Shown here piece after piece: positions 21,901-43,220 of a stretch of 51,735 nt of DNA. The DNA is from Deltaproteobacteria bacterium (GTDB taxonomy: Bacteria > Desulfobacterota > DSM-4660 > Desulfatiglandales > HGW-15). How positions within the stretch are numbered: the stretch's first letter is position 1; every line of letters begins with the position of its first letter. Where the stretch lies: the NCBI GenBank assembly GCA_037380925.1, contig JARRRH010000001.1:1-51735 (forward strand), written 5' to 3'. The notes beneath the pieces were generated by a model. The model was not told the DNA's origin. It did not search any database and was given only the letters and a program-made list of their open reading frames with translations. The position numbers and the translations under genes are program-made.

Positions 21901-24900
21901 TACCTGTTTGCGGCCCAGGATATCGGCGAAGTGGGGAATCCTATCACCACCGAGGTCGGCAATATCGAAGGCAAGTCCACGGCGGGCAGCACCTGGGTAA
22001 CGAACACCGGTCCGTTGACCGTGGGCGGGGTGGTGGACAGCTCTGACCCGGGGATGCTGGGTGGAGGGTCTGCCATCATCACGGCGACAAGTCCCATTAC
22101 TGTGGAAGAGGATTTGGTGTTCCCCAATGAAATCATCCTGACGGCAGGAGACTCCCCGGATGCCGGTGACGACCTGGTCGTGGTCAGCGGCAAGAGAGTC
22201 CAGTCAGAGTATGTGGAGTTGCGAGCAGGGGACAACTTGATCATTGAAGAAGACGCCGTGATCGAGGCGACAGCCCTGAAGCTCTTCGGAGATTACGGCA
22301 ATGCCGACCCGGAGGTCGGGTCCACCATAGACCCGCGGGGAGAGATCATTGCCACGTCGGTTGAGATCCTCGGTGAAGCCGACGGCGATGTGTTTGCTCT
22401 CGGGAATCTTTCGGCACCTGCGAGCGTTACAGGCGGGGGAGGGACAGACGAGCTGATCGGACCCGACGAGCCCGGTGGGCCGGACGGGCTCATCAATAGC
22501 TGGGAGATCCTGGGTCCCAACAGCGGCAATCTAAATGAGATGTTTATCATTTTTTCCGAGGTGGAGAGCCTTACCGGCGGCTCCGGGGATGACACTTTCT
22601 ATTTCCGCGGTCCCGGCAGCGTGGACGGCGTCGTGGACGGCGGTGCCGGGTTCGACATCCTGGACTTCCTCCAGTCCGATTATATCCAGCAGGCGGCTCA
22701 GGATTTCATAGACGTGGACCTGCCCATCGGAGACCCTCCTCCCGTGCCCTTTGCGGCAACCGGGGGGATTGTCCGGATCGAGGACATCAAGGTCATTCTC
22801 TTGGCGGAACTCCAGGAGGACGGCACGCTGGTTCTGAACATGGGGCCGCGGGCGGCGGAAAGGCTGACGATCAATACTGAAGACGGCGACGAGGTGTTTA
22901 CCCTGGGTCACGTGAAGGGGGATCCGGCCGATGCGGAGGGGGAGACCATAGCCGTGTCGGCCTTCGGCTTCACCCTGGAATATGACGGGGTTTCCTCAAT
23001 TCGCGGCTCGGGAGGCGAGGGGAACGACACCATCTTCCTCAGCAGTGACATCATGGCTCCGGCCGAACTGGACGGAGGTCCGGGGAGCGACACCTTGACG
23101 GGCGGTGCGGGCAACGACATTTTGCTCGGCGATGCGGGAATCATTACCCGCTCTTACAATGATGACGAGACCCTACGCAAAGATGTGCTTCTGACCGACG
23201 TGGGGATGATCACAGGTGCGTATACGCCAAGCGATTTAGGCTGGAAGGATGTGAGCTCAGCTGTTGTTTCGGATCTATTGGAAGCAGATCTCGTTCTGCT
23301 GACTGGTGCTTATAACGGTGACGGAAGCAAACATTTTGTTGAGAATTCGTGGGGTTGCCTAGAGTGGGAGACCCAGTTGCTTCTCGTCTTGCTCCTTGAG
23401 GACGGAGATGACATCCTTGACGGGGGTGCCGGGGATGACGCCCTGTTCGGCGGCCGCGGGAATGATTCAATTGGGGGCGGCGATGGGCGCGACTACCTGG
23501 TGGGCAACGCCGGGAATGACGACCTGGACGGCGGGGATGAAAACGACATTCTGGTGGGCGATGACGTCACGCGAATCGTACCTGACAGTCCGCTTCCCAA
23601 TGTGTTGCGCGGCCTCCATATGACGGGCGGGAACGGCCACGGTGGAGGAATCGTCCTGGGCGACTCGGGAACAACCATTGTGCCCATCGTCTCGGTTCTT
23701 CCCAATAAGGACCTAGACCCGCTTGTCGGCGTGACGACTCACGTCAGCAGCGACCTTCCCATCCTGCCGGATGACAATGTGCTTGACCGTGCTGATGGCA
23801 CGTACCTGGTGCCCTTGGCCTCGATCGTCACGGACGTGGGGCACCACCTTGATCTCCTTCCCGGCAATGATAGGCTCTTCGGAGGCGAAGGCGATGACAA
23901 GCTTGTAGGCGACAACGCGGTCGTTTTTTCTCCGGGCGTAACGATCAACCAGGCATTTCTTGAATCAGCCTTCGGTATGACATGGGATCTCCTCGCGGCC
24001 CTCGATGATTTCGGAGACTTGATCCATCGACTGCACGACGCCGTAGGAGATGGGGATAACTGCCACCCGTGCTACAGCTACGAGGATGTGGTTGTGGATC
24101 AGACATTCTGTCTGGGGAATGACTTCCTAGACGGCGGTGGCGGCAACGATTTTATGGTAGGCGACGAATTGACGTTGAAGGCCCCCTCGATTGGCGTGCC
24201 GACGGATCTGGTCCACGATTTCCACCACCTGATCAACGACCTTGAGGACGTTGGGGATGAGGCCGACTGGGCACTCCATGAGCTCGATGATGTGGCCCAT
24301 GACCTGCGGGATGACGTGATTCCCGTAAAGCACGGTAAAAAACGGATTAAGGGCCACCTCGTGCACCACATCGACCGCATCTTCGTCGGGAATGACTCGC
24401 TGGTGGGCGGTGACGGAGATGACCTCATGGTGGGTGACAACTGGAGCTACCTCGCACCTGAGATAACAGTCACATCAGGTGGATGGCCGGGCTACCATGG
24501 GTTCTGGCACCATGATCATGGTTGGGGATATGACCGCGGCAACCACTATGGGTGGTACAACGGAGGTCACAACAAGGATGGTCATGACGGACCGGGAGAC
24601 GTGTGGATCGTCGGTAAAGATACGATGGACGGCGGTGGAGGCAATGACGTGATGTTCGGTGACAGTATCGCGCTGACAGAGCCGACCATGGCCTCGACCG
24701 CAGATCTGTGCTGGTGGAAATTCGGAGCTGTTCATCACAAGGTCGAGGACATTCTTGATGACATTGTCAAGATGGGCCAGTATGGCGATGTCAGCGAGAG
24801 CTGCAACGCGGTGAACGGTGGCAATGATTACATTGTCGGCGGTGACGGGGATGACATGCTTTTCGGTCAGGGCGGTAATGACAAGCTCTACGGTGACGCC

Positions 24901-25343: not shown

Positions 25344-26525
25344 GTGGAAAAGGAAGAGCATAGCAGTAAAGAGAATGGAAGAGGTTCAAATCCCGCAACG
25401 GAGAATACCCAGGTAAAGATCCGGTGGGATAGATCCGATACCCGGAGTGCCTACGCTGATCGTTTCAATGTGATGGTCACCCGGGAGGAGATTATTCTGT
25501 GTTTTGGTTTGAACCAGGCCCTTGATGTCGGCCAGAAGGAGATGACGGTTCAACTTTCGAACGGAATCGTCCTGAGTCCCTTTGCAGCCAAACGGTTAGC
25601 CAATGCACTGAACCGTGTCCTCCAGGACTATGAGTCCAAATATGGTCCTCTGAAGGTGAAGGCTGCGCCGTCAACGGATTGGGCTCAGATTGCGCCACTC
25701 AGCGAGAAGCCCCCCTTTTCTGAGAAAGCAGGCCTGCTTTTTCATCTCGTAAAAAACCTCAACACAGAATACGGTTTTGAGCGTTCTTTCAAGATTTCCG
25801 AAAAAACATTGCTTGGAAATCGATTCCTGTTCACCATGAGTAAGCACGCCATAAGACAAAATCCCGATGAAGCCATATTGAATATCTGCAGAAAAATGGA
25901 TATGCCGAAAAAATTGCTGGAAGTCTTCCATGGAAACTTGCCATCTGCAAATTATGTCCATTTCGGGTTTGAGGAGGACGAAAAAAGTTACATTTACAAA
26001 GCCTATTTGGAGTTCTGGACCGACTGGGAAAATGAAATTGGGAAAAAGTCAAATCCGTCCGACCCGTTCTTGGTGCATTTGGGATTCAAGTGGGACGTAT
26101 CCGAGCCTACCCGATGCGTACTGACAAGATACACTTGCTATCCTTTCCTTTCTGTGGAAAATATCCTGGAGAGGTTGTCAAAGGTCTTTTACGGTGACCG
26201 CTACAGAACCCCTTTTGAGATCGCAAAAGGCATTGTCACTCTTGCTTCAAATAGAATATCCCACGAAAAGATCTTATATATCGAGGCAGAAGAAGAGAAC
26301 AATCCGAGAAGATCATTCGACATGAATATGTACAGGGCCAAAGTTCGTTTAGAAGAACTTTACCCTCTTTTGATGGACATGTGCCAGCACTATTCAATTC
26401 CCACAGCGGAATTTGATATCTTATATGACCAATTCAAAGCCAAATTATTTGGCCACTTGTCCGGTGGTATTGACAGGGAGGGAAAGGATTTCTTAACCGT
26501 GTACTACGGGGTGGAAGGGCATTAA
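25344..26525 (+). CDS. DUF3467-like N-terminal module fused to an uncharacterised ~270-aa domain
   Basis: GTG start. Residues ~23-105 (QVKIRWDRSDTRSAYADRFNVMVTREEIILCFGLNQ...VQLSNGIVLSPFAAKRLANALNRVLQDYESKYGPL) fit the DUF3467 pattern as I recall it (YSN..i.hs..EFvlDF...RIvLtP.hAKRLl.aL..ni.kYE..fG). I do not recognise the remainder. Confidence 0.75.
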   Translation: MEKEEHSSKENGRGSNPATENTQVKIRWDRSDTRSAYADRFNVMVTREEIILCFGLNQALDVGQKEMTVQLSNGIVLSPFAAKRLANALNRVLQDYESKYGPLKVKAAPSTDWAQIAPLSEKPPFSEKAGLLFHLVKNLNTEYGFERSFKISEKTLLGNRFLFTMSKHAIRQNPDEAILNICRKMDMPKKLLEVFHGNLPSANYVHFGFEEDEKSYIYKAYLEFWTDWENEIGKKSNPSDPFLVHLGFKWDVSEPTRCVLTRYTCYPFLSVENILERLSKVFYGDRYRTPFEIAKGIVTLASNRISHEKILYIEAEEENNPRRSFDMNMYRAKVRLEELYPLLMDMCQHYSIPTAEFDILYDQFKAKLFGHLSGGIDREGKDFLTVYYGVEGH

Positions 26526-26590
26526 CTCAGGAAGCCTTGGAAGGTGCCGAGGCGACTGTTATCGTAGAATGTTAATTGTGAAAGAAGAGC

Positions 26591-27493
26591 ATGACTTACA
26601 CAAGAGTTGATCTTACCCAATACGTTGTCATTTCTATTTGTTTTAGTTGTAACAACGACTGCAGCATCTGTATGCTGTCGGGGCTTAAAAGAAAGTTTCC
26701 TGCCATAGGCTTCGACCGTTTCAAGAAAGTGATCATCGATATTGTGAATAGCGGCAGGTTCGAGAATCTGATCCTTTCAGGAGCAGAGGTGACGACCTTT
26801 AACGATCTGGACAAGTATGTCCAATTCGCCGCTTCTCTTGGATGGTTCAAGAAAATACAAGTACAGACAAACGGCAGAAGACTCAGTGAAAAAGGATATC
26901 TGAGGCATCTGATTGATGGTGGCGTCAATGAGTTCTTCATCAGCATCCACGGCCTTGACGACGTTCATGATGCGATCACGCGCATGCGAGGGTCCTTCAA
27001 AGAGACGAGGGAAGGCCTTAAAAACCTTGAAGCCTTTGACGTTAATGTGATCAGCAACACGGTTCTGACAAAAACCAATCTTCACGATATGGCTCGCCTC
27101 ATGACCTTTTTGTCCAATGAAAGGATCAGCGAGATTCAGTTGTGGAACTTCTTCCCTATGGAGAGAACGGACACCAAAGATCTTGTGGTAAGCATGAAGG
27201 ATTTCACGGAAGTTCTCCCCGAAATACTTTCCATTGTAAAGAGAGCCGGTAAGCCCTTGGTTTTGAAAAGTTTTCCCGAGTGTCTTTCTATGGGGGAGCC
27301 TGGGTTCTTCGACAGCTTGTTTCCGGTGACCGTGCTTCCAGATGTTTTTTGGAGAAAATTCAGCGAAAGCGGGTTCGGAACGTGTATTTACAGGCAGAGA
27401 GAGGAGTGCAAGGCTTGGAAATGCTGGGGTCTCTCCAGTGCCTATGTTCAGAAATACGGAGATGAAAGAAATCTCCTGAAGCCTATGATGTGA
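26591..27493 (+). CDS. Radical SAM protein (300 aa, single core, Cys-rich C-terminus)
   Basis: CNNDCSIC (CxxxCxxC) near the N-terminus, followed by LILSGAEVT and QVQTNG strands typical of the radical SAM half-barrel. C-terminal CIYRQREECKAWKCWG. Confidence 0.85.
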   Translation: MTYTRVDLTQYVVISICFSCNNDCSICMLSGLKRKFPAIGFDRFKKVIIDIVNSGRFENLILSGAEVTTFNDLDKYVQFAASLGWFKKIQVQTNGRRLSEKGYLRHLIDGGVNEFFISIHGLDDVHDAITRMRGSFKETREGLKNLEAFDVNVISNTVLTKTNLHDMARLMTFLSNERISEIQLWNFFPMERTDTKDLVVSMKDFTEVLPEILSIVKRAGKPLVLKSFPECLSMGEPGFFDSLFPVTVLPDVFWRKFSESGFGTCIYRQREECKAWKCWGLSSAYVQKYGDERNLLKPMM

Positions 27494-28362
27494 GAAAGAC
27501 CATGGACGGATTGGAATACATGACCGCTCAGGATGTCTTCTTTGATTTCTGCTTGTGGGAATACACCCCTCTAGCGCCCTGGGAAAACAAATTCAGCTCC
27601 TCAACCCTGCTTTTTCACTCCTTTAAAGTCGCCGGTCTCGATGAGCGGATTTTCGATCTTATCCAAGCGATCCGTAAAGGGATCGGTCTTTCACGCACAG
27701 TGTGGGGAGTCAAGCAGTTAGGAGACGATATCCGATGGGAATTCTACTTTTATGATTACAGGAGAAGAGAAAGGGAGAGGTCCATTACGAAAGTCCTGGA
27801 AATCATGCGGCCTTTTGTCCGCTGTGGGATGAAAGTCAATGAAAATTACCACTATTTCATGTTCTCTATCGATATTAGCGGCGATCTTTTTGCAAAAGCC
27901 ACGGAATTAGAAGAGATCCATATGTACATCGGCAACGTCGGCAGCACCGTTTCATCAGGAATCTGTTACTCCTTAAAAAATGAGGGGACAAGGCTTGAAA
28001 ATTTTTACTTCTTTTTTGATGCGAAAACACAGGGGGATGAGATCTTAGGTAAGGTCGTTAGTTCTGCCTATATTGACACAACCGTAATAAAAATCGATCA
28101 AATTCTCTGGCCTGAAATGAGAGACTGCAAGGTCATCGTGGTGGCCAACAAGCAGAGTAATGACGCCGTCTATTTTTCAAGAATCAATGTGGATCAGCTG
28201 ATCTTTTTCCTCAACAGGATGAACTATCCAAATGAGCTTATCTCTTTCATAGAGAAAAACAGGGCCAAGCTGGACCACCTGCAATATGACGTCGGTTATG
28301 ACTACAAGATGGACGGAAAAGATTTAATGATTCTGAAAAGCGGCTACTATGGGATTTTTTGA
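27490..28362 (+). CDS. Uncharacterised protein, distant paralog of the C-terminal domain of the 25344 gene
   Basis: GTG start overlaps the preceding stop (GTGA at 27490-27493); alternative ATG at 27502. By-eye collinear similarity to gene 25344: VWGVKQLGDDIRWEFYFYDY vs VHFGFEEDEKSYIYKAYLEF; ...DGKDLMILKSGYYGIF vs ...EGKDFLTVYYGVEGH. Confidence 0.7.
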   Translation: MRKTMDGLEYMTAQDVFFDFCLWEYTPLAPWENKFSSSTLLFHSFKVAGLDERIFDLIQAIRKGIGLSRTVWGVKQLGDDIRWEFYFYDYRRRERERSITKVLEIMRPFVRCGMKVNENYHYFMFSIDISGDLFAKATELEEIHMYIGNVGSTVSSGICYSLKNEGTRLENFYFFFDAKTQGDEILGKVVSSAYIDTTVIKIDQILWPEMRDCKVIVVANKQSNDAVYFSRINVDQLIFFLNRMNYPNELISFIEKNRAKLDHLQYDVGYDYKMDGKDLMILKSGYYGIF

Positions 28363-28394
28363 ATGACTGCTGGAAATGACCTTCGAGAGTAACG

Positions 28395-29507
28395 ATGATC
28401 ATCAGCATATACAACCTCCACAATATGTGTGAAAATAATACTTTTTTCCTCTCCAGAGCCTGGCGCTACTTTGAGCTCAACGGCCACACGGTCACGGATG
28501 CAGGGGATGAAGTTGACCTGGTTTTCATCGGCGGTTGTGCAGTCACGGACCTGATGCGTTCGCGGTGCGAAGACACTATCCTGAAAAGGATACAACAACT
28601 CCAGCAGGCATACTTTGTGATCTTCGGATGCCTGGCAGCCTTCCCGGAGGGATTCCGATCGATAACTGGCCGGAATGCTGATCGCCTTCGCCTTATTCCT
28701 TACCAGGACAGCGGTGAACTGGACGAACTGATTAAGGCACGGATCCCCTTTGACATGGTCAATATTAGTCGGCTGAAAGGACACGTACCCTACCAACCCC
28801 GGGTGGGGCCGGACGATTTCTATGTGCTGATCGCCCAGGGCTGCGTTAATAATTGCAGTTACTGCAACATAAAAAGGGCCAAGGGAAACGTGGTGAGCCG
28901 TTCGGAAGAAGCCATCGAGGGTGAGGTGAGGGAGTTATACTCTCTTGGAATCCGGACCGTGACGCTTTTGGGTGACGACTGCGGCTCGTATGGTCTCGAT
29001 CGCGGCTCGACCCTGCCGAAGTTGATCACGCAGCTCAGCAGGGTGGGGCCCGAGCTGCGGTACAAACTCTACACGGTTTTCCCTCCCCTTTTCCTACAAT
29101 ACGCCGCACAACTGGAGCCGTTCTTTGCACAGCGCCGCGTGCCGTATGTGTGCCTTCCAGTACAGTCAGCAGCCCCTCGGGTTCTGGACCTGATGAATCG
29201 GCACTACGATCCTGACCAGCTGGCAGGGGTGATCGCTCGTCTCAGGTGTCTGGATCCCGAGGTCTTTGTCTACTCCCATTTCATCTTTAACTTTCCGACG
29301 GAAACCTGGGGCGAATTCGAGCAGAGCATTGCTTTCGCACGGCACTTTGACCACTGTGTATTCATCGGCTACGGCGAAAATAGCTCGACGCGGGCAGCAG
29401 CGCTTACCCCGAAATGCAGCAACCATGAATTAGAGGACAAGGCGCGGCGACTTGAGGAGTTGGTCGAGCGGGGTGAGTTAAGGGCCTTCGTGGTGCCGTG
29501 CCCTTGA
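28395..29507 (+). CDS. MiaB/RimO-family methylthiotransferase-like radical SAM protein without a TRAM domain
   Basis: N-terminal three-Cys domain (NMCENN ... GGCAVTD ... FGCLAAF). Radical SAM core IAQGCVNNCSYCNIKRAKGNVVSRS...TLLGDDCGSYG. The protein ends soon after the core, leaving no room for a TRAM fold. Confidence 0.8.
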   Translation: MIISIYNLHNMCENNTFFLSRAWRYFELNGHTVTDAGDEVDLVFIGGCAVTDLMRSRCEDTILKRIQQLQQAYFVIFGCLAAFPEGFRSITGRNADRLRLIPYQDSGELDELIKARIPFDMVNISRLKGHVPYQPRVGPDDFYVLIAQGCVNNCSYCNIKRAKGNVVSRSEEAIEGEVRELYSLGIRTVTLLGDDCGSYGLDRGSTLPKLITQLSRVGPELRYKLYTVFPPLFLQYAAQLEPFFAQRRVPYVCLPVQSAAPRVLDLMNRHYDPDQLAGVIARLRCLDPEVFVYSHFIFNFPTETWGEFEQSIAFARHFDHCVFIGYGENSSTRAAALTPKCSNHELEDKARRLEELVERGELRAFVVPCP

Positions 29508-29566
29508 TCCCGGGATCGGGCTGGCCGTACACGCGTTTGGGGCTCAGGCCAAAACAGACGTGGTGA

Positions 29567-30748
29567 ATGAAAATGTTACCCAGCACACACGACTTTCAGC
29601 ATGGGATGATTTCCATTTTAAATGCGAGCAAACGGTGCGAGCCCAGCGCCTTTTTGTTCACGAAAGCGGTGAGGTTTTTTCTGGTGAACGGGTATGGCAT
29701 AGGGAACAATATCGACCAGAGCGAGATAATCCTGGTGAACACATGCTGCGTTACGGAAGACAAAATAGCAGCCTCCAGGGAGGCTCTCGACTGCGCCAGA
29801 AACCAAGGGAATGGAAAGCGGGTTGTCCTGTTCGGCTGTATGGCCAGTCTCCCTCTTCCGGGATTGGAACGGGAGTATCTGATCTGCATCGGCCCCAAGA
29901 ATCTGGACGCGCTGGATACTCATTTCCCGCACCATACGTCGGTCAATGATATCCCTGTCAATCAACTGTCCCCGCAGCTCTACGAACCAGGACAGGGACT
30001 CGGATACGGAGACTACTTTGTGCTGATTGCCCAGGGCTGCTCTAACCAGTGCTCCTACTGCAACATTAAGCGGTGCAAAGGAGAGGTGAGAAGCGAACCT
30101 GCCGAAAGGATCCTTCCGCAGATCCGGAGAGGCCTTTCCCTGGGGGTGCAGGAATTTGCCCTTTTGGCTGATGACTGTGCGAGCTATGGTCGTGATCTTG
30201 GGACCGACCTCGTGCAGCTCATTGAACAATTGTTCACCTCAAAACCCGATTTCGGTCTGAAACTGGGGTATGTTTATCCGCAATTTATCCTGAGGCATTT
30301 CACCAGGTTGAAGAAAATCTTCGGAACCGGACGGATCAGGTACCTCAACATTCCGGTGCAGTCAGGCTCACAAAGAATCCTGGATCTCATGAACCGGCGT
30401 TATTCCATCGACAGAGTAATGGAAGCCGTCCGGGAGTTGCACGAGGTGGCACCACGCACGACCTTCTGCACGCACATCATGATCAACTTTCCGACCGAGT
30501 CCCATGACGATTTTCTTAAATCCCTCGCGGTTGCAGATGGCTTCGACGAGGTGCTCTTCCTGCATTACTCGGACAATCAGGACACCGCCGCTGCCCGCAT
30601 CCTCCCTAAAGTGTCTGAGCCAGAGGTCCGCAGGCGGCTGGACATGGCTTCCCATTACGCGAATCATTGGAGGCGGGGGCAAAGCGCCGTCATCAAAGAT
30701 TTCAACTGTGATATCCCCTACAACATGCTTAGAACCATCGAAGGATAG
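29567..30748 (+). CDS. Second MiaB/RimO-family methylthiotransferase-like radical SAM protein without a TRAM domain
   Basis: KRCEPS ... NTCCVTED ... FGCMASL, then IAQGCSNQCSYCNIKRCKGEVRSE...LLADDCASYG. Paralog of the preceding gene. By alignment to that paralog, ATG 29606 (MISILNASKRCE) may be the true start. Confidence 0.8.
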   Translation: MKMLPSTHDFQHGMISILNASKRCEPSAFLFTKAVRFFLVNGYGIGNNIDQSEIILVNTCCVTEDKIAASREALDCARNQGNGKRVVLFGCMASLPLPGLEREYLICIGPKNLDALDTHFPHHTSVNDIPVNQLSPQLYEPGQGLGYGDYFVLIAQGCSNQCSYCNIKRCKGEVRSEPAERILPQIRRGLSLGVQEFALLADDCASYGRDLGTDLVQLIEQLFTSKPDFGLKLGYVYPQFILRHFTRLKKIFGTGRIRYLNIPVQSGSQRILDLMNRRYSIDRVMEAVRELHEVAPRTTFCTHIMINFPTESHDDFLKSLAVADGFDEVLFLHYSDNQDTAAARILPKVSEPEVRRRLDMASHYANHWRRGQSAVIKDFNCDIPYNMLRTIEG

Positions 30749-30751
30749 AAC

Positions 30752-32287
30752 ATGGCCCTGCCTCTGATAAAGGTCGTGCAGTTAACAGTAACAAACAGGT
30801 GCCAATGCAATTGTCAGCACTGTGGTGTCTCAAAGCTCCGACAAACGATCAAGGGCGAACTCACATTGAAGCAGATCGATTTACTATTTCGGGACTTCAA
30901 GCTTGCCGGATGCCTGGTCGTTGATTTATTCGGCGGCGAGCCCACGTTGCGTCAAGACCTCTTCGAAATCATCGAGCTTGGGAAATTCTATGGGTTCATC
31001 GTGTCGTTGGAAACGAACGGATATGTCGTGGATCACGCGTACATGGAACGGCTCGCTGCAGCAGGACTGGACCTGATTTATCTAAGCCTGGATGATTACC
31101 GGGCAGAGATCCATGACAGAATACGAAGGAAGAAGGGAAGCTTTGAGAGGGCTGTCCGTGCCCTGGAGCTTGGAGCAAAGACGGATATCGTCATGCACGT
31201 CTCGACGGTTCCTCAGACGCGCGAGTATTTCACCAATGGAAATATCAATCGGTTCATGGAGTTTGTGCTGGAGCACGGCGCGGAGCAGGTGCGTCTCCTG
31301 CTGCCCCGATTTGTCGGCCATTCGATTCGTGAGGGATGTGGTCCTCTGGGTGCCGGTGAAGAGAGGGAGCTCTTTTCCTATGTCTCCGCGGGCTATTACG
31401 ATTACATGTACGTGCATACCCCGGGGACGCCCCTTGGGGAGACTAATGTGTGCACGGCCAAGCAGGTCTTCTGTCACGTCATGAGTAACGGCTGGGTTGC
31501 GCCTTGCCCTTATTTTCCGCTGGTTTTCGGGGATGCAACGCGGGAATCGATCGTTGATATCTTTGAGCGTATCCAGGGACATCCTCTGGTGCGGCTTGGC
31601 GGCGACTATTGTCCTATGAGGAATGAGGAGTACATCAACACCCATATCCGAAAGTTGGGGCTCGATCGACCGTTTTTCCCTATTACGGTCGACAACCAGA
31701 TCAATCTCGGCGCTCCGTGCGGGGCGAGATGCCCGGGATGCGCTCACGGAGTGCGATCGGTTCCGAGGTCCGCTGACGAAATTGTTCGAGAGATAAGGGA
31801 GGTACCGTCAGAGTATAGGCGCCTAGAATTCTATGGGGGGGACGCATTCCTGCGGGATGACCTGTTTGCCATCCTCGACCACGTTTCTGCAGCAAAAAAT
31901 ATTACTTTGTGGTCGGCGTGCAGCCAAATGCCGAAAGACCGAGCTTTCATGGACCGCTTGCGATCCTATCGCATTGAGGCTATCAAGGTTCCTTTGCCTT
32001 TTCAGCCCATCGGTGACATTGGGCGCTCCGATCCCGGTAATGGGTTTAGAGAGGCATTGCAAGGAGCGTCCTCAATGAGTAGGTGGGGGTTTCCCATCCA
32101 CCTCTATGTACCGATGATTCGTATGGCAGAATTTCACGCGGCTTTTGCGACGAGCGTTCATGAGTTGGGCGCGGAAAGGCTATACGGTTTCGCAAGAGAC
32201 CTTGAACACCCCTTAGCCAATTCCGTCGCCTGCTTTGGCAGAGAACTGGAGCGTGTGCGGCTCTTATGGGCACGAGAAGCGACCTAA
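30752..32287 (+). CDS. Radical SAM protein with two tandem CxxxCxxC cores and a SPASM/twitch-like Cys cluster (511 aa)
   Basis: Core 1: NRCQCNCQHCG (30800-30823) then DLFGGEPTL. SPASM-like CTAKQVFCHVMSNGWVAPCPYFPLVFGD...YCPM. Core 2: PCGARCPGCAHG (31718-31741) then EFYGGDAFL. The two halves align to each other. Confidence 0.85.
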   Translation: MALPLIKVVQLTVTNRCQCNCQHCGVSKLRQTIKGELTLKQIDLLFRDFKLAGCLVVDLFGGEPTLRQDLFEIIELGKFYGFIVSLETNGYVVDHAYMERLAAAGLDLIYLSLDDYRAEIHDRIRRKKGSFERAVRALELGAKTDIVMHVSTVPQTREYFTNGNINRFMEFVLEHGAEQVRLLLPRFVGHSIREGCGPLGAGEERELFSYVSAGYYDYMYVHTPGTPLGETNVCTAKQVFCHVMSNGWVAPCPYFPLVFGDATRESIVDIFERIQGHPLVRLGGDYCPMRNEEYINTHIRKLGLDRPFFPITVDNQINLGAPCGARCPGCAHGVRSVPRSADEIVREIREVPSEYRRLEFYGGDAFLRDDLFAILDHVSAAKNITLWSACSQMPKDRAFMDRLRSYRIEAIKVPLPFQPIGDIGRSDPGNGFREALQGASSMSRWGFPIHLYVPMIRMAEFHAAFATSVHELGAERLYGFARDLEHPLANSVACFGRELERVRLLWAREAT

Positions 32288-32306
32288 ACCGGAAGGAAGC
32301 ACCAGG

Positions 32307-33542
32307 GTGAATTTCAATAAGAATCGGGTATTGCTACTTTATCCCGCTGCAGAGACAGTGCAATGGAACCTTATCCCGTTGTCGTTGCTCTACGTGGCTC
32401 AACCTCTTATCGAAGAGGGTATAAATGTGGAGATCATTGATCAAAGGCTTGAAAGAGATTTTTTTGGAAGAGTGCATCAACGAATCACTCCAGATCTTAT
32501 ATGTATCGGAATTAGCTGCATTACCGGGCCTCAAATAGAGCAGGTCATTAGGATCTCTGAATTCATCAGGAAGGTTACAAACACTCCTATCGTGCTTGGA
32601 GGACCCCATCCCACTCTCTTGCCCGAACAGACGCTCGAGTCTGGACTTGTCGATTATGTTGTGATCAGTAAAGGTGAAGTACCTTTTTTGAACCTTGTAA
32701 GAGCGCTGAAAATGAATGGATCTGCTCAGAGAGTTCCCCAGGTGGGGTACAAGGAAAACGGAAAAATTGTTATCCATAAAGGCCACGTGCCGGAAATCAT
32801 TGTTCGCAGAATACCCTACCACCTCGTCTCCCGGTACGGGAGACCTTCGACCGTTCCCATCATCTCTTCCTACGGGTGTCCATACCATTGCTCGTTTTGT
32901 GTGGAAAAGGTCTTACATCCGACCTACTATGAAATACCGATCCGTGATGTCTTGTTCATGGTCGAGGAAGCCCTAAGCCTAGGTCCAGAGTTCATAGACT
33001 TTATTGATGATAATTTTCTCCTAAACAGTAAAAGGGTGATTGAACTTTTTTCTTCCTGCCAGGGGAAAGGCCTCGACTTCCGTTGGTTATGTACGGGCAG
33101 GGTGGATGGGGTTTCAAGTCTGGATGACGAAACCTTGAGGTTTTTGAGAAAAAGGGGTTTGGTATGTATCTATTTCGGAATAGAATCTGGTTCTAAAAAG
33201 ATATTGAAATTGATTAATAAAAGGATAACGCCGGAGATGGTTCTAAGGCTCAATTTGAGACTGAGAAAAGAGGGGATCATCCCACACTACAGTTTTATGG
33301 CTGGGTTCCCAACGGAGACGGGAGAGGATATCGGAAAGACGATAGGATTAATGAATCGGCTGAAAGAGGAAAACCCCGAAGCCGTGATTTGGAAGATCAA
33401 CCAGTATACTCCTTATCCTGGCACCGAATTGTTCGACCTCGCCATCCAAAACGGTTTTAAGCCTCCTGAGAAATTCGAGGAATGGAGTCATATCCATTTT
33501 TATTCTAAACACCATGCGGGGCCATACGACCTGCACTACTAG
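32307..33542 (+). CDS. B12-binding-domain radical SAM protein (class B type)
   Basis: GTG 32307 follows GGAAGGAAG, 19 nt after the previous stop; the tracked ORF start at 32235 overlaps the upstream gene. Rossmann-like B12 domain (VLLLYPA..., ICIGISCITGPQ, PIVLGGPHPT), then SSYGCPYHCSFCVE. Confidence 0.8.
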   Translation: MNFNKNRVLLLYPAAETVQWNLIPLSLLYVAQPLIEEGINVEIIDQRLERDFFGRVHQRITPDLICIGISCITGPQIEQVIRISEFIRKVTNTPIVLGGPHPTLLPEQTLESGLVDYVVISKGEVPFLNLVRALKMNGSAQRVPQVGYKENGKIVIHKGHVPEIIVRRIPYHLVSRYGRPSTVPIISSYGCPYHCSFCVEKVLHPTYYEIPIRDVLFMVEEALSLGPEFIDFIDDNFLLNSKRVIELFSSCQGKGLDFRWLCTGRVDGVSSLDDETLRFLRKRGLVCIYFGIESGSKKILKLINKRITPEMVLRLNLRLRKEGIIPHYSFMAGFPTETGEDIGKTIGLMNRLKEENPEAVIWKINQYTPYPGTELFDLAIQNGFKPPEKFEEWSHIHFYSKHHAGPYDLHY

Positions 33543-33661
33543 TAAAAATGCATTAAATCACGTGAGACGGGCCCCTCTCCACCTTTCGCGTTGACCAGGA
33601 GAGAGGAAAGCACTAAATCTCATGTGCTTCTGCAAACAAGAATAGATCAGAAAAGGTTCAT

Positions 33662-35014
33662 ATGGCTTCGGGGAATCATCAACGGAAGAACCAAGGCAAA
33701 GAGTTTGATTATCTCTGCGTGGATGACTTTATTAAGAACCTCTTTGATGCCCGAGCCCTAGCGACTGCATTTGAAATACGGCTTATCGACTCCCTTCTTC
33801 AGGACAAACATGCCACGGTTGATTCCCTAACAGTACAATTGGGCATGGACAGCCGTGGAATGCGCTTACTTCTTGACCTTCTCCTTGCCAATCGCGTGGT
33901 CGAAAATAAGAATGGCGACCTGAGTCTCACAGAAGAGTTTGCTCATGCGCTACAATTTCGTGAGCTGTTAGAGTTGAAACTCATCATGACAAATTTCGCC
34001 GCCCATGACCTCTTGGATTACTTTAGTGAATTGGTGAGTCGCCCTGAGCAATTTGTGAACAAAGCCCGCTTTTTCAAATTATTTTCTTATAATAGATGTT
34101 TTGACTATAGCCAGGAGAATTACGAGCTGACCAAACGGTGGATGCGGATTACGACCGTCTTGACCAAATACGAGGCGCAGGCATGTATCAAATACCACGA
34201 CTTCAGCCGATACAGACGTATTTTGGACATCGGAGGAAACAGTGGCGAATTTGTCCGCCAGATTTGCAAGATATACCCGAGGGTTTCAGCTACGGTTTTT
34301 GACCTCCCTCTTGTTTGCGATATCGGGCTGGAGCATATCCGGTCCGAATCCGAAGCGGATAGGATAACATTTATTAAGGGAAACGCATTAACCGATCCTT
34401 TGCCGGAGGGTTTTGATCTGATCACCTTTAAATCCATGCTCCATGATTGGCCGGAAAGAGAGGCAAAGAAGTTCATGGAAAAAGCGATCCACTCTTTAGC
34501 GTCTGGAGGAACATTGCTGATTTTCGAGAGGGGTCCGATTGAAATTGGTGAGACTCCATTCCCGTATTCAATGATTCCATTCCTTGTTTTCTTCCATTCT
34601 TTCCGATCACCGGTAATATACGAAGAGCAGCTTGAAATGGACCACGCGACGTCATACATGGCGAAAGATAGCAAAGATAACAGCAGTGAGAAGTCCGGCA
34701 TGAGCAGCAGCGCCGCACAGGTCGGCGATCAGGTGAGAATCCGCTGGGACGGTTCCAACATGAGGAGCGCTTATGCCAACGTTTTCAATGTCACCGCTGC
34801 GAGGGAGGAAGTTGTCCTTTTGTTTGGGATGAACCAAGCCTTTGATGCGGGCCAGAAAGAACTCAAGGTCCAGCTCTCCGACCGAATCGTCCTGAGCCCG
34901 TTCACAGCCAAACGGATGCTTACCGTGCTAAACAATGTCATGAAGGACTACGAGTCGAAATACGGCCCCCTTGACGTGCAACCCTCTCAACCAACGGACT
35001 CTTCGTTACAATAG
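33662..35014 (+). CDS. Class I SAM-dependent O-methyltransferase (family-2 type with N-terminal winged-helix dimerisation region) fused to a C-terminal DUF3467-like module
   Basis: SAM motif RILDIGGNSGEF, then ATVFDLP, ITFIKGNAL, DLITFKSMLHDWPE and GGTLLIFE. C-terminal residues (34730-34978) QVRIRWDGSNMRSAYANVFNVTAAREEVVLLFGMNQ...RIVLSPFTAKRMLTVLNNVMKDYESKYGPL closely match the N-terminus of gene 25344. Confidence 0.8.
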   Translation: MASGNHQRKNQGKEFDYLCVDDFIKNLFDARALATAFEIRLIDSLLQDKHATVDSLTVQLGMDSRGMRLLLDLLLANRVVENKNGDLSLTEEFAHALQFRELLELKLIMTNFAAHDLLDYFSELVSRPEQFVNKARFFKLFSYNRCFDYSQENYELTKRWMRITTVLTKYEAQACIKYHDFSRYRRILDIGGNSGEFVRQICKIYPRVSATVFDLPLVCDIGLEHIRSESEADRITFIKGNALTDPLPEGFDLITFKSMLHDWPEREAKKFMEKAIHSLASGGTLLIFERGPIEIGETPFPYSMIPFLVFFHSFRSPVIYEEQLEMDHATSYMAKDSKDNSSEKSGMSSSAAQVGDQVRIRWDGSNMRSAYANVFNVTAAREEVVLLFGMNQAFDAGQKELKVQLSDRIVLSPFTAKRMLTVLNNVMKDYESKYGPLDVQPSQPTDSSLQ

Positions 35015-41594: not shown

Positions 41595-41622
41595 TGGATC
41601 TCTGAACCATGAGGAGGATCTT

Positions 41623-42804
41623 ATGGGCTTGAAGGAGAAATACGCTGTTGTAGGCGTGGGGTACACGCCGCAGGGCCGGGTTCCTGACAGAACCTCCCTG
41701 AGTTTTCATCTTGAGGCCGCAGCAAACGCAATTCGTGATGCCGGGCTCAAGAGGGAGGACATTGACGGGCTGATCTGTTACAGGCATTTTCCTCCTTGTA
41801 GCGGCGAAGGAGAGGTGACCCCTCAAATCGTGGTACAGCACCTGGGGATAAGCCCGGCCTACCTGAGCCAGGATGCCAATTGATCCAGAAGCCACCTCCA
41901 GCACGCAGTTGGCGTGTTAGATGCAGGGCTGTGTAACTATGTGGTTATTACCTACGGGCACAGTGCTCTTTCAGGTGGTGGAATGGAGCTCTTGCTCAAA
42001 GAGGTAACCCGGGAAGATGCTGTGTTTGGTCATTCTGGTCTGTTCGGCCACTTCGGAGCAACCGGCGGATACGCCCTTGCTGCAAGACGGGCCATGCATG
42101 CCTTTAACACCGGACCGGACACCTGGAAACACATTGCCGTGGGAGAACGAAAATGGGCAAATCTGAATCCAAAGGCGGTGATGTACAAACAGAAAATGAC
42201 CTTTGAAGACTACTATGATGCAAGATGGGTTGTGGAGCCGTTTCGCCTCCTTGATACTTGTCTTATCAATGACGGGGGGCGCGCTGTGGTGGTGACCTCT
42301 ACAGAAAGAGCAAAAGATCTCAGACACCCTCCTGCCCTTATCTTGGGCATGGGCCAGCACAACCCCTCTTGGGAAATCTCTCAAGCCACCTACATGGCGG
42401 GACCAACAGGTGCGAAGAGAGCCGGGGAGGCGGCCTTTAAGATGGCAGGGCTCAGCCTTGAGGATGTTGATGCATGTCAAATCTACGATTGCTTTACTTA
42501 CACGGTCGAGATCACCCTCCAGGACTATGGGTTTTTCGGCCCGGGAGAAGGCAAAGACTGGTTTAAGGACGGGACCATTGAACCGGGTGGAAAGATGCCT
42601 GTGAACACGTCCGGAGGGCAGCTCTCAGAAGCTTATTTCATGGGGCTTACCCCCCTTTCGGAAGCAGTCATGCAAATCATGGGGCGTTGTGGCGAGAGGC
42701 AACTGGGGCCAAGGACGAAAACCAGGGAGCCCAACATCATCCTTTGCAGTGATAACGGAGGAGTGCTTCAATCTCATTCCTGCTATATTCTGGGGAGGAC
42801 CTGA
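41623..42804 (+). CDS. Thiolase-like (SCP-x/DUF35-partnered type) protein with an in-frame TGA at codon 87: candidate selenoprotein, otherwise a pseudogene
   Basis: ATG 41623 follows GAGGAGGA. The 86-aa N-terminal ORF (MGLKEKYAVVGVGYTPQG...) and ORF 41914..42804 are in the same frame, separated only by TGA 41881-41883. Read-through gives ...SQDAN-U-SRSHLQHAVGVLDAGLCNYVVITYG, resembling thiolase ...NN-C-A(S/T)G....A...I..G..D.V. Confidence 0.6.
41900..41918 (+). promoter_or_regulatory. SECIS-like hairpin 17 nt downstream of the in-frame UGA
   Basis: AGCACGC-AGUUG-GCGUGUU forms a 7-bp stem (five central Watson-Crick pairs of which four are G-C, plus a G-U and an A-U at the base) with a 5-nt apical loop AGUUG (41907-41911). 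Confidence 0.35.
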
Positions 42805-42809
42805 TACAA

Positions 42810-43220
42810 ATGGTTGATAAAAAGCCTTTGCCCGTGCCGAACGCGGATACCAAACCCTTTTGGGATGGTTGTAGGGAGCATGAATTAAGGTTCCAGAGGT
42901 GCTGGGAGTGCGGCCATGTGCGCTGGCCTCCATCCACGTTTTGCCCCAAATGCCACTCAGGCGCCCATGATATGATCACAGCGAGCGGGAAAGGGAGGGT
43001 GTTCACCTTCGCCGTCTATCACCAGGCACACCACCCGGCGTTCAGGGATGAAGTGCCCTATGTGGTCGCTGTTGTAGAACTCGAGGAAGGTGTGCGCCTG
43101 CTTTCCAACATTGTGGGATGCAGACACGATGAGGTGAGATGCGAGATGCCGGTAGAGGTGACCTGGGAGGATCTAAGCGAAGAGTTCAGCCTGCCGCAAT
43201 TCAAGCCCCGCTCTTTGTAA
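42810..43220 (+). CDS. DUF35 family Zn-ribbon / OB-fold protein (thiolase partner)
   Basis: ATG 42810 follows GGGGAGGA, 5 nt after the thiolase stop. Four-Cys ribbon CWECGHVRWPPSTFCPKC, then an OB-fold segment GKGRVFTFAVYH...PYVVAVVELEEGVRLLSNI. Confidence 0.85.
   Translation: MVDKKPLPVPNADTKPFWDGCREHELRFQRCWECGHVRWPPSTFCPKCHSGAHDMITASGKGRVFTFAVYHQAHHPAFRDEVPYVVAVVELEEGVRLLSNIVGCRHDEVRCEMPVEVTWEDLSEEFSLPQFKPRSL

What the first reader, a model, noticed from the sequence alone, without database searches (positions are those of the whole stretch)
41623..42804. In-frame TGA at the expected catalytic-Cys position of a thiolase-like enzyme, with a SECIS-like hairpin: candidate selenocysteine thiolase
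Seen in sequence: the two tracked ORFs (41623-41883 and 41914-42804) are in the same frame and are interrupted only by TGA at 41881-41883, which is codon 87. Read-through gives ...PAYLSQDAN-[TGA]-SRSHLQHAVGVLDAGLCNYVVITYGH. Established knowledge: thiolases carry their nucleophilic Cys at about residue 85-90, in ...NN-C-A(S/T)G....A...I..G..D.V(L/V)... . The context here fits if a ~2-residue gap is allowed. Seventeen nt after the TGA lies a 7-bp stem with a 5-nt loop AGUUG (41900-41918). As I recall, bacterial SECIS elements are hairpins whose apical loop lies roughly 16-37 nt 3' of the UGA and begins with or contains a conserved G, often GU. Inference: the gene may encode a Sec-for-Cys thiolase-like enzyme. 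Sulfate-reducer and syntroph-type lineages are rich in selenoproteins. The alternatives are a nonsense mutation (TGC or TGG to TGA) or a sequencing error.
Basis: partly seen in the sequence, partly recalled or inferred. Interest (0 to 1): 0.65.

Follow-up and report, generated by a model that had tools for sequence, protein, structure and literature searches.

The report
Selenocysteine-containing thiolase-like enzyme gene
The in-frame stop codon is real and almost certainly encodes selenocysteine in the active-site loop of a thiolase-fold enzyme; the same recoded gene occurs in at least 180 other sequences from sulfate-reducing and syntrophic bacteria, and this family is missing from the current catalogue of bacterial selenoproteins.

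Summary
One 393-codon thiolase-fold gene (41623-42804) is interrupted only by TGA at 41881-41883, and a 7-bp hairpin with loop AGUUG follows at 41900-41918.

It is not a mutation or a sequencing error. The same TGA sits at the same column in 4 near-identical contigs, in at least 118 diverse metagenome loci, and in 64 of the 80 best species-representative genomes. These include the isolates Desulfatibacillum alkenivorans DSM 16219 and Desulfatitalea alkaliphila. All other parsed homologues have Cys there.

- **Selection:** both halves of the gene are under equal purifying selection (dN/dS 0.083 and 0.082).
- **Integrity:** 161 of 166 TGA forms keep an intact 3' reading frame.
- **RNA constraint:** wobble positions inside the hairpin are nearly frozen in TGA forms but free in Cys forms. 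The hairpin meets all four criteria of the bacterial SECIS model.
- **Partner gene:** the only conserved neighbour is a DUF35 zinc-ribbon/OB-fold gene (42810-43220).

The Sec lies in the loop that carries the thiolase nucleophile. Its exact register is uncertain by about one residue.

No thiolase-like family appears in the May 2026 catalogue of 119 prokaryotic selenoprotein families or in NCBIfam. Sec machinery could not be checked in this genome, and there is no biochemical evidence.

The parts
41611..41617 (+). Ribosome-binding site GAGGAGG, 5 nt before the ATG
   Evidence: Read directly from the sequence.
41623..42804 (+). Complete selenoprotein gene: a 393-codon SCP2-thiolase-like enzyme with Sec at codon 87 and a terminal TGA stop
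   Evidence: Translation. Pfam Thiolase_C_1, E = 1.5e-41. Homologues are 66-82% identical over the full length. AF2 models show a thiolase fold, and Foldseek top hits are 4u4e, 6ok1 and 9myr.
41881..41883 (+). UGA codon 87, read as selenocysteine
   Evidence: Aligned with an invariant Cys in Cys-form homologues. TGA is conserved in 186 loci. Codons directly 3' of it keep their amino acids while their wobble bases vary.
41900..41918 (+). SECIS core hairpin: 7-bp stem and 5-nt apical loop
   Evidence: -10.4 kcal/mol. Wobble positions at +20 to +35 are near-invariant in 159 unique TGA forms but variable in 13 Cys forms.
41907..41911 (+). Apical loop AGUUG; its G (41908) and U (41909) are invariant in all 149 aligned TGA forms
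   Evidence: Alignment A3; column counts. Matches the N-G-[G/U] loop rule of the bSECIS model.
42484..42495 (+). YDCF motif (Tyr288, Asp289, Cys290, Phe291); Cys290 is the counterpart of the SCP2-thiolase acid/base Cys and of Sal Cys304
   Evidence: Y288, D289 and C290 are invariant in 129 of 129 family members; F291 is invariant in the 20-sequence alignment A1. Aligned to YDHF of Ltp2 and YDCY of Sal. Residue roles come from PMC12329534.
42634..42636 (+). Tyr338, at the position of the thiolase GHP histidine and of Ltp2 Tyr344
   Evidence: Invariant in 129 of 129 members. Alignments to 7yvy (..RGHPVG..) and 6ok1 (..GEAYIHG..).
42810..43220 (+). DUF35 partner gene (136 aa): C4 zinc ribbon (CWEC-x10-CPKC) plus OB fold
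   Evidence: Pfam zf-ChsH2 and OB_ChsH2_C; translation. It is the only neighbour conserved across loci, found in 61 of the 78 parsed loci (the window plus 77 of the 80 genome loci).

Best explanation
41623-42804 is one gene for a selenoprotein. This part is shown by comparison with other sequences.

The rest of the mechanism is inferred from the established bacterial recoding pathway. When the ribosome reaches UGA-87, the hairpin 16 nt downstream acts as a bacterial SECIS element. Its loop is N-G-U-N-N, closed by three G-C pairs. It recruits SelB-GTP-Sec-tRNA(Sec), so selenocysteine is inserted and translation continues to the TGA at 42802.

The product is a 393-residue enzyme with an SCP2-thiolase fold. 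It most likely pairs with the DUF35 zinc-ribbon/OB-fold protein encoded next to it, as BbsAB, the archaeal thiolase/HMG-CoA synthase complex, Ltp2-ChsH2 and Sal-Shy do. This pairing is inferred from the conserved gene pair.

Sec87 sits in the strand-to-helix loop that holds the acyl-accepting cysteine in thiolases. Cys290 of the YDCF motif sits where SCP2 thiolases have their acid/base cysteine. The most likely chemistry is therefore thiolytic cleavage, or Claisen condensation, of a 3-oxoacyl-CoA through an acyl-selenoester on Sec87, with Cys290 protonating the leaving enolate.

Both thiolase histidines are replaced by invariant tyrosines (Tyr288, Tyr338). A selenol is already ionised at neutral pH, so it would not need the activating histidine. 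This may be why Sec is the predominant form in this family. The chemistry is inference and has not been shown.
For: - **Cys at the TGA column.** Seen in all full-length homologues examined.
- **TGA is widespread.** Of the 80 best GTDB species loci, 64 have TGA and 13 have Cys. TGA forms are only 64-100% identical to one another, median 72%.
- **Gene integrity.** 161 of 166 have 297-306 codons after the TGA. dN/dS is 0.083 upstream and 0.082 downstream over 510 pairs.
- **RNA-level constraint specific to TGA forms.** Wobble entropy at +20 to +35 is 0-0.67 bits in TGA forms and 1.0-1.83 bits in Cys forms. Flanking wobble positions show mostly 1.1-1.9 bits in TGA forms. Mean hairpin energy is -10.2 kcal/mol in TGA forms and -6.2 in Cys forms.
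- **bSECIS criteria met.** Loop 5 nt, stem 7 bp, G at loop position 2 followed by U, 23 nt from UGA to the loop, and -10.4 kcal/mol.
- **TGA is an ordinary stop elsewhere in the window.** It ends 13 of 25 genes, including this one.
- **A host genus decodes Sec.** D. alkenivorans AK-01 is listed with 20 selenoprotein genes.
- **Fold and residues.**
- **DUF35 pairing.**
Against: - No selA, selB, selD or tRNA-Sec gene lies in the window or in the 60 related loci scanned. The Sec trait of this organism is therefore assumed from its relatives.
- Base-pair covariation neither supports nor refutes the stem, because the stem hardly varies. One stem pair is an A-C mismatch in 60 of 149 sequences.
- No Rfam SECIS model matches.
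- The register of Sec87 relative to the thiolase nucleophile is uncertain. With the catalytic columns masked it aligns at 0 (6esq) or +1 (7yvy, hhalign). The spacing to the conserved Gly is 15 residues instead of the universal 17. In the confident model of the Cys form (pLDDT 89.7) the residue lies in a 7-residue loop, four residues before the helix begins.
- The closest solved relatives are retro-aldolases or uncharacterised proteins that lack the nucleophile, not true thiolases.
- The substrate is unknown, and the gene context beyond DUF35 is not conserved.
Confidence: 0.85

Rival explanations
1. Sec is inserted as described, but the enzyme is not a thiolase. It would be a retro-aldolase like Ltp2 or Sal, or another C-C lyase or acyltransferase, that uses the Tyr288/Cys290 dyad (plus Tyr338). 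Residue 87 would then have a different role, such as general acid/base, substrate positioning or a redox switch, rather than carrying an acyl group.
For: - The best PDB matches are 4u4e, Ltp2 (6ok1) and Sal (9myr), which are aldolases or uncharacterised proteins.
- Both Ltp2 catalytic tyrosines and the Sal Tyr/Cys dyad are invariant here.
- Both thiolase histidines are absent.
- Masked alignments put Sec87 up to one residue off the nucleophile position.
- In the model the residue sits in a loop, not at the helix N-terminus.
Against: - The characterised aldolases have Gly at the nucleophile position. The Sal authors take that as the reason thiolysis is impossible. This family instead keeps an invariant Cys or Sec in that loop (129 of 129).
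- The partner here is a free-standing DUF35 protein rather than the DUF35 domain of a hydratase (ChsH2, Shy), the arrangement described for Ltp2 and Sal.
- Neighbours, where informative, are beta-oxidation-type genes and not steroid genes.
Confidence: 0.3
2. The TGA is a nonsense mutation or a sequencing/assembly error, and the gene is a pseudogene.
For: Taken alone, a single in-frame TGA is one substitution away from TGC or TGT. Gene callers treat it as two ORFs.
Against: - The same TGA is present in 186 loci from many samples and lineages.
- Reading frames are intact on both sides.
- dN/dS is about 0.08 on both sides.
- The RNA hairpin downstream is conserved only in TGA forms.
Confidence: 0.01
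3. The gene is genuinely split. Translation ends at UGA to give an 86-residue peptide, and a second polypeptide starts downstream (GTG 41914 in the window). The two pieces then assemble, and the hairpin serves translational coupling.
For: Both halves are under purifying selection, which a split gene would also show.
Against: - Codons between the TGA and any downstream start (S-R-S-H-L-Q-H-A-V-G) keep their amino acids while their wobble bases vary. They are therefore translated in frame directly after the UGA.
- The first downstream start codon differs from one gene call to the next (296-, 287- and 273-aa calls).
- A split at exactly the codon that is Cys in the unsplit homologues, in 186 loci, would be an unexplained coincidence.
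- The hairpin loop carries the SelB-type G-U signature.
Confidence: 0.03
4. UGA is read through as a standard amino acid (Cys, Trp or Gly), either by a reassigned code or by near-cognate suppression, without selenium.
For: Some bacterial lineages reassign UGA (general knowledge). Sec machinery was not seen in the window.
Against: - TGA ends 13 of 25 genes in the window, including this gene at a C-terminus that matches its homologues.
- The hairpin fits the SECIS model and is conserved only with TGA.
- The lineages that carry the TGA form (Desulfobacterales, Syntrophales and relatives) are known Sec users.
Confidence: 0.03

Closest known systems
DUF35-associated and SCP2-type thiolases: archaeal acetoacetyl-CoA thiolase (6esq/6et9, 7yvy), benzoylsuccinyl-CoA thiolase BbsAB (7pxp), and zebrafish and trypanosomatid SCP2 thiolases
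   Same: - Same fold.
- A Cys-type residue in the N-beta3/N-alpha3 loop.
- An xDCF motif with the acid/base Cys.
- An adjacent DUF35 zinc-ribbon/OB-fold partner, as in BbsA and the archaeal complex.
   Different: - Selenocysteine replaces the loop cysteine in most members.
- Both catalytic histidines (HDCF, GHP) are tyrosines.
- The helix after the nucleophile loop is 2 residues shorter.
- Sequence similarity to true thiolases is low (E = 1e-20 to 1e-38, against 1e-69 to 1e-80 for 4u4e).
Thiolase-fold retro-aldolases Ltp2-ChsH2(DUF35) (6ok1) and Sal-Shy(DUF35) (9myr), and the uncharacterised 4u4e
   Same: - These are the closest solved structures.
- The YDxF tyrosine, the second Ltp2 tyrosine and the Sal cysteine are all present and invariant.
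- They also form DUF35 partnerships.
   Different: - They have Gly at the nucleophile position and cannot form an acyl-enzyme. This family keeps Sec or Cys there.
- Their DUF35 is a domain of a hydratase. Here it is a separate 136-aa protein.
- There is no steroid-degradation context.
Catalogued bacterial selenoproteins with a Sec/Cys pair and a coding-region SECIS; among them the predicted CTP-synthase-related glutamine amidotransferase (GxUxG)
   Same: - In-frame UGA aligned with Cys in homologues.
- A hairpin that fits the consensus bSECIS model.
- Occurrence in selenoprotein-rich Deltaproteobacteria.
- From my own knowledge, the GxUxG motif lies where glutamine amidotransferases carry their nucleophilic Cys, so that family would be a precedent for Sec as an acyl-accepting nucleophile rather than a redox centre. 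The table read gives only the motif.
   Different: - No thiolase-fold family is among the 119 families and subfamilies listed in May 2026.
- No NCBIfam model reaches its cut-off.
- Most catalogued families are thiol-oxidoreductase-like with UxxC or CxxU motifs. This one has no such motif.
The 'selenium-containing thiolase' of Clostridium kluyveri (Hartmanis and Stadtman, 1982; recalled from memory, not checked here)
   Same: A thiolase reported to contain selenium.
   Different: As I recall, the selenium there was in selenomethionine, incorporated non-specifically, not in a UGA-encoded selenocysteine. It is also a different, classical thiolase family.

Membership tests
Bacterial selenoprotein gene (UGA recoded through a coding-region SECIS) | In-frame UGA at a position that is Cys in homologues | tested here: met
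   16 of 16 full-length homologues and 13 of 13 Cys-form genome loci have Cys at the TGA column.
Bacterial selenoprotein gene (UGA recoded through a coding-region SECIS) | UGA conserved in diverged orthologues, with both flanks intact and under purifying selection | tested here: met
   186 TGA loci at 64-100% pairwise identity. 161 of 166 have intact 3' halves. dN/dS is 0.083 upstream and 0.082 downstream.
Bacterial selenoprotein gene (UGA recoded through a coding-region SECIS) | Hairpin meeting the bSECIS model: loop 3-9 nt, upper stem 4-16 bp, G in the first two loop positions, 16-37 nt from UGA to loop, MFE at or below -7.5 kcal/mol | tested here: met
   Criteria from PMC13188914. Here the loop is 5 nt (AGUUG), the stem 7 bp, the spacing 23 nt and the MFE -10.4 kcal/mol.
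Bacterial selenoprotein gene (UGA recoded through a coding-region SECIS) | Hairpin constrained at the RNA level, beyond what the protein requires, and only when UGA is present | tested here: met
   Wobble entropy is 0-0.67 bits in the hairpin of 159 TGA forms, 1.0-1.83 bits in 13 Cys forms and mostly 1.1-1.9 bits at flanking wobble positions of TGA forms.
Bacterial selenoprotein gene (UGA recoded through a coding-region SECIS) | Compensatory base-pair changes in the stem | tested here: inconclusive
   The stem is nearly invariant. There is one C-G to U-A double change (L012). The covariation score does not exceed the shuffles. One stem pair is an A-C mismatch in 60 of 149 sequences.
Bacterial selenoprotein gene (UGA recoded through a coding-region SECIS) | selA, selB, selC (tRNA-Sec) and selD in the same genome | not testable with these tools
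   None is present in the 51.7-kb window or in 60 related loci. The rest of the genome is not available. Indirect evidence: the genus Desulfatibacillum, which carries the TGA form (L146), is listed with 20 selenoprotein genes.
Bacterial selenoprotein gene (UGA recoded through a coding-region SECIS) | Selenium in the protein (75Se labelling or a Sec peptide by mass spectrometry) | not testable with these tools
   This needs an experiment.
Thiolase (SCP2 type or DUF35-associated) | Thiolase fold | tested here: met
   Pfam Thiolase_C_1. AF2 models have pTM 0.79 and 0.91. Foldseek probability is 1.00 to thiolase-fold structures.
Thiolase (SCP2 type or DUF35-associated) | Nucleophilic Cys at the start of helix N-alpha3, 17 residues before the conserved Gly | tested here: inconclusive
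   Unmasked HMMER aligns U87 with the 7yvy Cys. With the catalytic columns masked it aligns at 0 (6esq) or +1 (7yvy, hhalign). The spacing to Gly102 is 15, not 17. In the model the residue lies in a loop four residues before the helix.
Thiolase (SCP2 type or DUF35-associated) | Acid/base Cys in the HDCF-type motif | tested here: met
   YDCF, with Cys290 invariant in 129 of 129 members. The equivalence is stated in PMC12329534.
Thiolase (SCP2 type or DUF35-associated) | Catalytic histidines (the GHP loop, and His of HDCF) | tested here: not met
   Both positions hold invariant Tyr (Tyr338, Tyr288).
Thiolase (SCP2 type or DUF35-associated) | Thiolytic or Claisen activity on 3-oxoacyl-CoA | not testable with these tools
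   This needs an enzyme assay.
Ltp2/Sal thiolase-fold retro-aldolases | Catalytic Tyr of the YDxF/Y motif, plus a second Tyr (Ltp2) or the motif Cys (Sal) | tested here: met
   Tyr288, Cys290 and Tyr338 are invariant. Alignments to 6ok1 and 9myr. Residue roles.
Ltp2/Sal thiolase-fold retro-aldolases | Loss of the nucleophilic Cys (Gly at that position) | tested here: not met
   Sec or Cys is invariant in that loop. Sal and Ltp2 have Gly there.
Ltp2/Sal thiolase-fold retro-aldolases | DUF35 partner is the C-terminal domain of a MaoC hydratase (ChsH2, Shy), within a steroid side-chain degradation cluster | tested here: not met
   The partner is a stand-alone 136-aa DUF35 protein. Neighbours vary between loci, and no steroid-degradation gene was seen among the clusters that were annotated.

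The most novel reading that the evidence does not exclude
This would be the first natural enzyme of the thiolase superfamily that uses selenocysteine as its acyl-carrying nucleophile. It would form an acyl-selenoester during C-C bond cleavage or formation, in an active site that has dispensed with the activating histidines. It would be the predominant form of this enzyme across Desulfobacterota (Syntrophales, Desulfobacterales, Desulfatiglandales), and it has gone unnoticed because gene callers split it into two ORFs.
Probability: 0.5. Interest if true: 0.8.

Novelty: new variant of a known kind. Interest (0 to 1): 0.72.

Why it matters
Nearly all known selenoproteins are redox enzymes. A selenocysteine in the nucleophile loop of a thiolase-fold enzyme would extend selenium biochemistry to acyl-transfer and C-C bond chemistry in central acyl-CoA metabolism. 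The organisms concerned are anaerobes that degrade fatty acids and hydrocarbons.

It also offers a natural Sec/Cys pair for asking why selenium is preferred over sulfur when no redox cycle is involved. Both forms exist, some of them 78-89% identical to each other. Three Cys forms still carry the SECIS hairpin.

There is a practical consequence too. The gene is mis-annotated in public data as an 86-aa orphan plus a truncated 'acetyl-CoA acetyltransferase'. As a result, selenoproteome counts and metabolic reconstructions for these lineages miss it. A dedicated annotation model, together with a place in the selenoprotein catalogues, would correct this.

Tried and rejected
- **Rfam.** No SECIS or other family matched, either at gathering scores over the whole window or at E up to 10 around the hairpin, where only noise appeared.
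- **tRNA-Sec and Sec machinery.** None was found in the window. A tRNA-Sec scan of 60 related loci found only ordinary tRNAs.
- **Covariation in the hairpin.** Tested with the count of structure pairs and RNAalifold, and uninformative because the stem is almost invariant.
- **Link to the upstream sdhA/sdhB genes.** Considered and rejected. They match housekeeping succinate dehydrogenase models above cut-off and are not conserved next to the gene in other loci.
- **RefSeq annotation of the isolates' genes.** The look-up failed because it does not accept 'U' in a sequence.
- **Fixing the register of residue 87.** Tried with masked profiles and a second, confident AF2 model. This narrowed the register to within about one residue but did not settle it, because model coordinates and residue-level superpositions are not available.
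- **Peters, Rother and Boll 2004.** This paper on D. multivorans selenoproteins could not be read.
Full report
**Observation.** Translating window 41623-42804 on the + strand gives 393 codons. There is one internal stop, TGA at 41881-41883 (codon 87), and a terminal TGA. A GAGGAGG ribosome-binding site lies 5 nt before the ATG. A hairpin lies downstream of the TGA: a 7-bp stem (41900-41906 with 41912-41918) and a loop AGUUG (41907-41911). Folded alone, 41896-41922 gives -10.4 kcal/mol with z = -2.96. In a 71-nt context the fold is unremarkable (z = -0.09). On this sequence alone, however, the hairpin would be weak evidence.

**What the gene is.** The read-through protein matches Pfam Thiolase_C_1 (E = 1.5e-41). 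The next gene, 42810-43220, encodes a 136-aa DUF35 protein with a ChsH2-type zinc ribbon and OB fold, and a canonical CxxC-x10-CxxC site. The upstream genes are a bona fide succinate dehydrogenase flavoprotein and iron-sulfur subunit. They are not conserved next to this gene elsewhere. No NCBIfam model reaches its cut-off for the thiolase-like protein.

**The TGA corresponds to Cys.** A protein search returned many full-length homologues (66-77% identity, 382-407 aa). It also returned three near-identical (97-99%) truncated proteins that begin just after the TGA. In the alignment, all 16 full-length homologues have Cys exactly at the TGA column..SQ[DE]AN-C-[SA]R[ST]H... The contigs that encode the truncated proteins come from two samples and represent two strain variants. 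All of them have the same TGA, preceded where the contig reaches far enough by an 86-codon ORF. This excludes a sequencing error.

**The TGA form is widespread.** Of these, 118 are true homologues with diverse flanking sequence. I also scanned one genome per GTDB species with the family profile. Among the best 80 loci, 64 have TGA and 13 have TGC or TGT. The carriers are Syntrophaceae, Smithella and other Syntrophales, Desulfatiglandales, Desulfobacteraceae, Desulfatitalea, Desulfarculaceae and Desulfomonilia. They include the isolates Desulfatibacillum alkenivorans DSM 16219 and Desulfatitalea alkaliphila M08but. The window's closest named relative is a Deltaproteobacteria MAG at 82% identity (L125), also with TGA. 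TGA forms are 64-100% identical to each other, median 72%. Most Cys forms are nested among them, with nearest neighbours that are Sec forms at 78-89% identity.

**It is not a pseudogene.**
- Of 166 TGA forms with a complete 3' part, 161 have 297-306 codons after the TGA, and 147 have exactly 300.
- Over 510 pairs at 80-97% nucleotide identity, dN/dS is 0.083 for the 81 codons before the TGA and 0.082 for the 300 codons after it.
- The codons immediately after the TGA (S-R-S-H-L) keep their amino acids while their third bases vary. Translation therefore continues in frame through the UGA.
- TGA is an ordinary stop in this genome: it ends 13 of 25 genes, including this one. A reassigned genetic code is therefore excluded.

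**SECIS.** In 159 unique TGA-form segments, the third-codon positions at +20, +23, +26, +29, +32 and +35 (counting from the T of TGA) have entropies of 0-0.67 bits. The flanking third positions mostly have 1.1-1.9 bits. The same six positions in the 13 Cys forms have 1.0-1.83 bits. The constrained stretch is exactly the hairpin CAGCACGC-AGUUG-GCGUGCU. Mean hairpin energy is -10.2 kcal/mol in TGA forms and -6.2 in Cys forms. Three Cys forms retain the hairpin, as expected after a recent Sec-to-Cys change.

The loop varies (AGUUG, GGUCG, CGUUG, CGUGG and others), but its G and U are invariant in all 149 aligned sequences. The published consensus model for bacterial SECIS elements requires four things (PMC13188914): a 3-9-nt loop; a 4-16-bp upper stem; a G in the first two loop positions, usually followed by G or U; and 16-37 nt between UGA and the loop with MFE at or below -7.5 kcal/mol. 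The window's element gives 5 nt, 7 bp, A-G-U, 23 nt and -10.4 kcal/mol, so it meets all of them.

Formal covariation tests are uninformative because the stem barely varies. There is one compensatory C-G to U-A change, and one stem pair is an A-C mismatch in 60 of 149 sequences. Rfam has no matching model.

**Sec machinery.** The window has no selA, selB, selD or tRNA-Sec gene, and neither do 60 related loci. This defining feature therefore could not be tested for this organism. Indirectly, D. alkenivorans AK-01 and D. aliphaticivorans are each listed with 20 selenoprotein genes (supplement of PMC5029168). Deltaproteobacteria are the classic selenoprotein-rich group (PMC1794560).

**What the enzyme is like.** The closest solved structures are:
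- 4u4e, an uncharacterised 'thiolase' (E = 8.5e-80 with the family profile);
- the retro-aldolases Ltp2-ChsH2(DUF35), 6ok1, and Sal-Shy(DUF35), 9myr.

True thiolases are more distant (7yvy, 6esq, BbsB, SCP2 thiolases). Two AF2 models give a thiolase fold. The window protein with X at residue 87 gives pLDDT 70.7, and the Cys-form P0001 with 117 sequences gives pLDDT 89.7 and pTM 0.91.

Across 129 family members, Tyr288, Asp289 and Cys290 (motif YDCF), Asn328 and Tyr338 are invariant, and residue 87 is always Sec or Cys. According to PMC12329534:
- The Tyr of YDxF is the catalytic base of Ltp2 and Sal.
- The Cys of that motif is the catalytic acid of Sal, and corresponds to the acid/base Cys of SCP2 thiolases.
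- Ltp2 uses a second Tyr that aligns with our Tyr338.
- Sal has Gly where thiolases have the nucleophilic Cys, which is why it cannot perform thiolysis.

This family therefore combines the aldolase-type tyrosines with both thiolase-type cysteine positions, and it lacks both thiolase histidines.

**Register of residue 87.** In every solved relative, the nucleophile position, or its Gly replacement, lies 17 residues before the conserved Gly of the I..G..(D/E)VV segment. Here Sec87 is 15 residues before Gly102.
- Ordinary HMMER alignment places Sec87 on the 7yvy Cys with a 2-residue gap. That alignment is attracted by the Cys-Cys match.
- With the catalytic columns masked on both sides, HMMER places the 6esq nucleophile on the Sec column but the 7yvy nucleophile one residue earlier.
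- hhalign also places it one residue earlier, with modest confidence.
- In the confident model of the Cys form, the residue sits in the middle of a 7-residue loop between the strand and a shortened helix.

The residue is thus in the nucleophile loop, within about one residue of the canonical position, and it is the only Cys or Sec there. I could not obtain a residue-level superposition. I take the nucleophile role as the most likely reading, at roughly 55-60% given that Sec is inserted, with an Ltp2/Sal-like or other role as the main rival.

**Context and function.** Only the DUF35 gene directly downstream is conserved; the clustering found it in 61 of the 78 parsed loci (the window plus 77 of the 80 genome loci). 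Other neighbours vary between loci. In a minority of loci they are enoyl-CoA hydratase (8), acyl-CoA dehydrogenase (5), AMP-dependent ligase (5), TetR regulators (5), SDR (3), HpaB/AbfD-like (4) and hydantoinase-like (4) genes. This fits acyl-CoA metabolism but does not identify a substrate.

**Novelty.** I found no paper in the library that links selenocysteine with a thiolase:
- None of five exact phrases for such an enzyme occurs.
- 53 papers hold both 'thiolase' and 'selenocysteine'. I opened three of the anaerobe papers among them, and in none is selenocysteine mentioned in connection with a thiolase; in two it occurs only in the reference list. The other listed titles are on unrelated subjects.
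- The one paper that holds DUF35 together with the selenium terms is a review of modified ribonucleosides.
- 'Thiolase' and 'acetyltransferase' are absent from the main selenoproteome papers.
- They are also absent from Table 1 of the May 2026 review, which lists 119 prokaryotic selenoprotein families and subfamilies, including those known only from GenBank annotation.

Public gene calls split the gene into an 86-aa ORF and a truncated acetyltransferase. I therefore rate it a new variant of a known kind. The recoding mechanism is standard and the enzyme superfamily is known, but the combination has not been described. It could still be recorded somewhere I could not search.

**Verdict.** The finding is real, and its interpretation is largely correct. 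My confidence that this is a genuine Sec-encoding gene is about 0.85-0.9. What remains uncertain is the untested Sec machinery and the lack of biochemical data. My confidence that Sec87 is the acyl-accepting nucleophile of a thiolase-type reaction is about 0.5.

Noticed in passing
window 172-25179 (+): Two giant ORFs: 3693-12998 (3101 aa) and 12913-25179 (4088 aa, with RTX calcium-binding repeats at its C-terminus). They are preceded by a short SecA-like gene (172-2070, 632 aa) and an HlyD-like gene (1943-2917). The first 1000 residues of both giants have no Pfam match.
   Followed up: partly
window 25344-35014 (+): A cluster of five radical-SAM genes: 26591-27493, 28395-29507, 29567-30748, 30752-32287 and 32235-33542. 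Two are MiaB/UPF0004-like and one has a B12-binding domain. The cluster is bracketed by two DUF3467 proteins, the second of which is fused to an O-methyltransferase. Function unknown.
   Followed up: no
window 42022-42057 (+): An imperfect 18-nt tandem duplication inside the selenoprotein gene (VFGHSG / LFGHFG). It gives a 6-codon insertion found only in the window and its near-identical relatives L001-L004.
   Followed up: partly
L126, L190 and L196 (Cys-form genes in genome loci): Three of the 13 Cys-form genes still carry the SECIS hairpin downstream of TGT or TGC (-12 to -15 kcal/mol). This looks like a relic of a recent Sec-to-Cys replacement.
   Followed up: partly
L002 839-2020, L003 165-1346, L004 288-1469: Public gene calls split the selenoprotein gene into an 86-aa ORF with no Pfam hit and a 273-296-aa 'acetyl-CoA acetyltransferase'. 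The family is systematically mis-annotated.
   Followed up: yes
L127, about 930-421 nt upstream of the Sec codon, and 3 other genome loci: A C_GCAxxG_C_C family gene lies next to the thiolase-like gene in 4 loci. This family has catalogued Sec-containing members. I did not check whether these copies contain Sec.
   Followed up: no
L056 184-249 (-) and downstream: One metagenome TGA form has a degraded hairpin (CAGCAAGC..GACGTGC) and a frame disruption 52 codons after the TGA. It is probably a true pseudogene or an assembly error, one of 5 such cases among 166.
   Followed up: no
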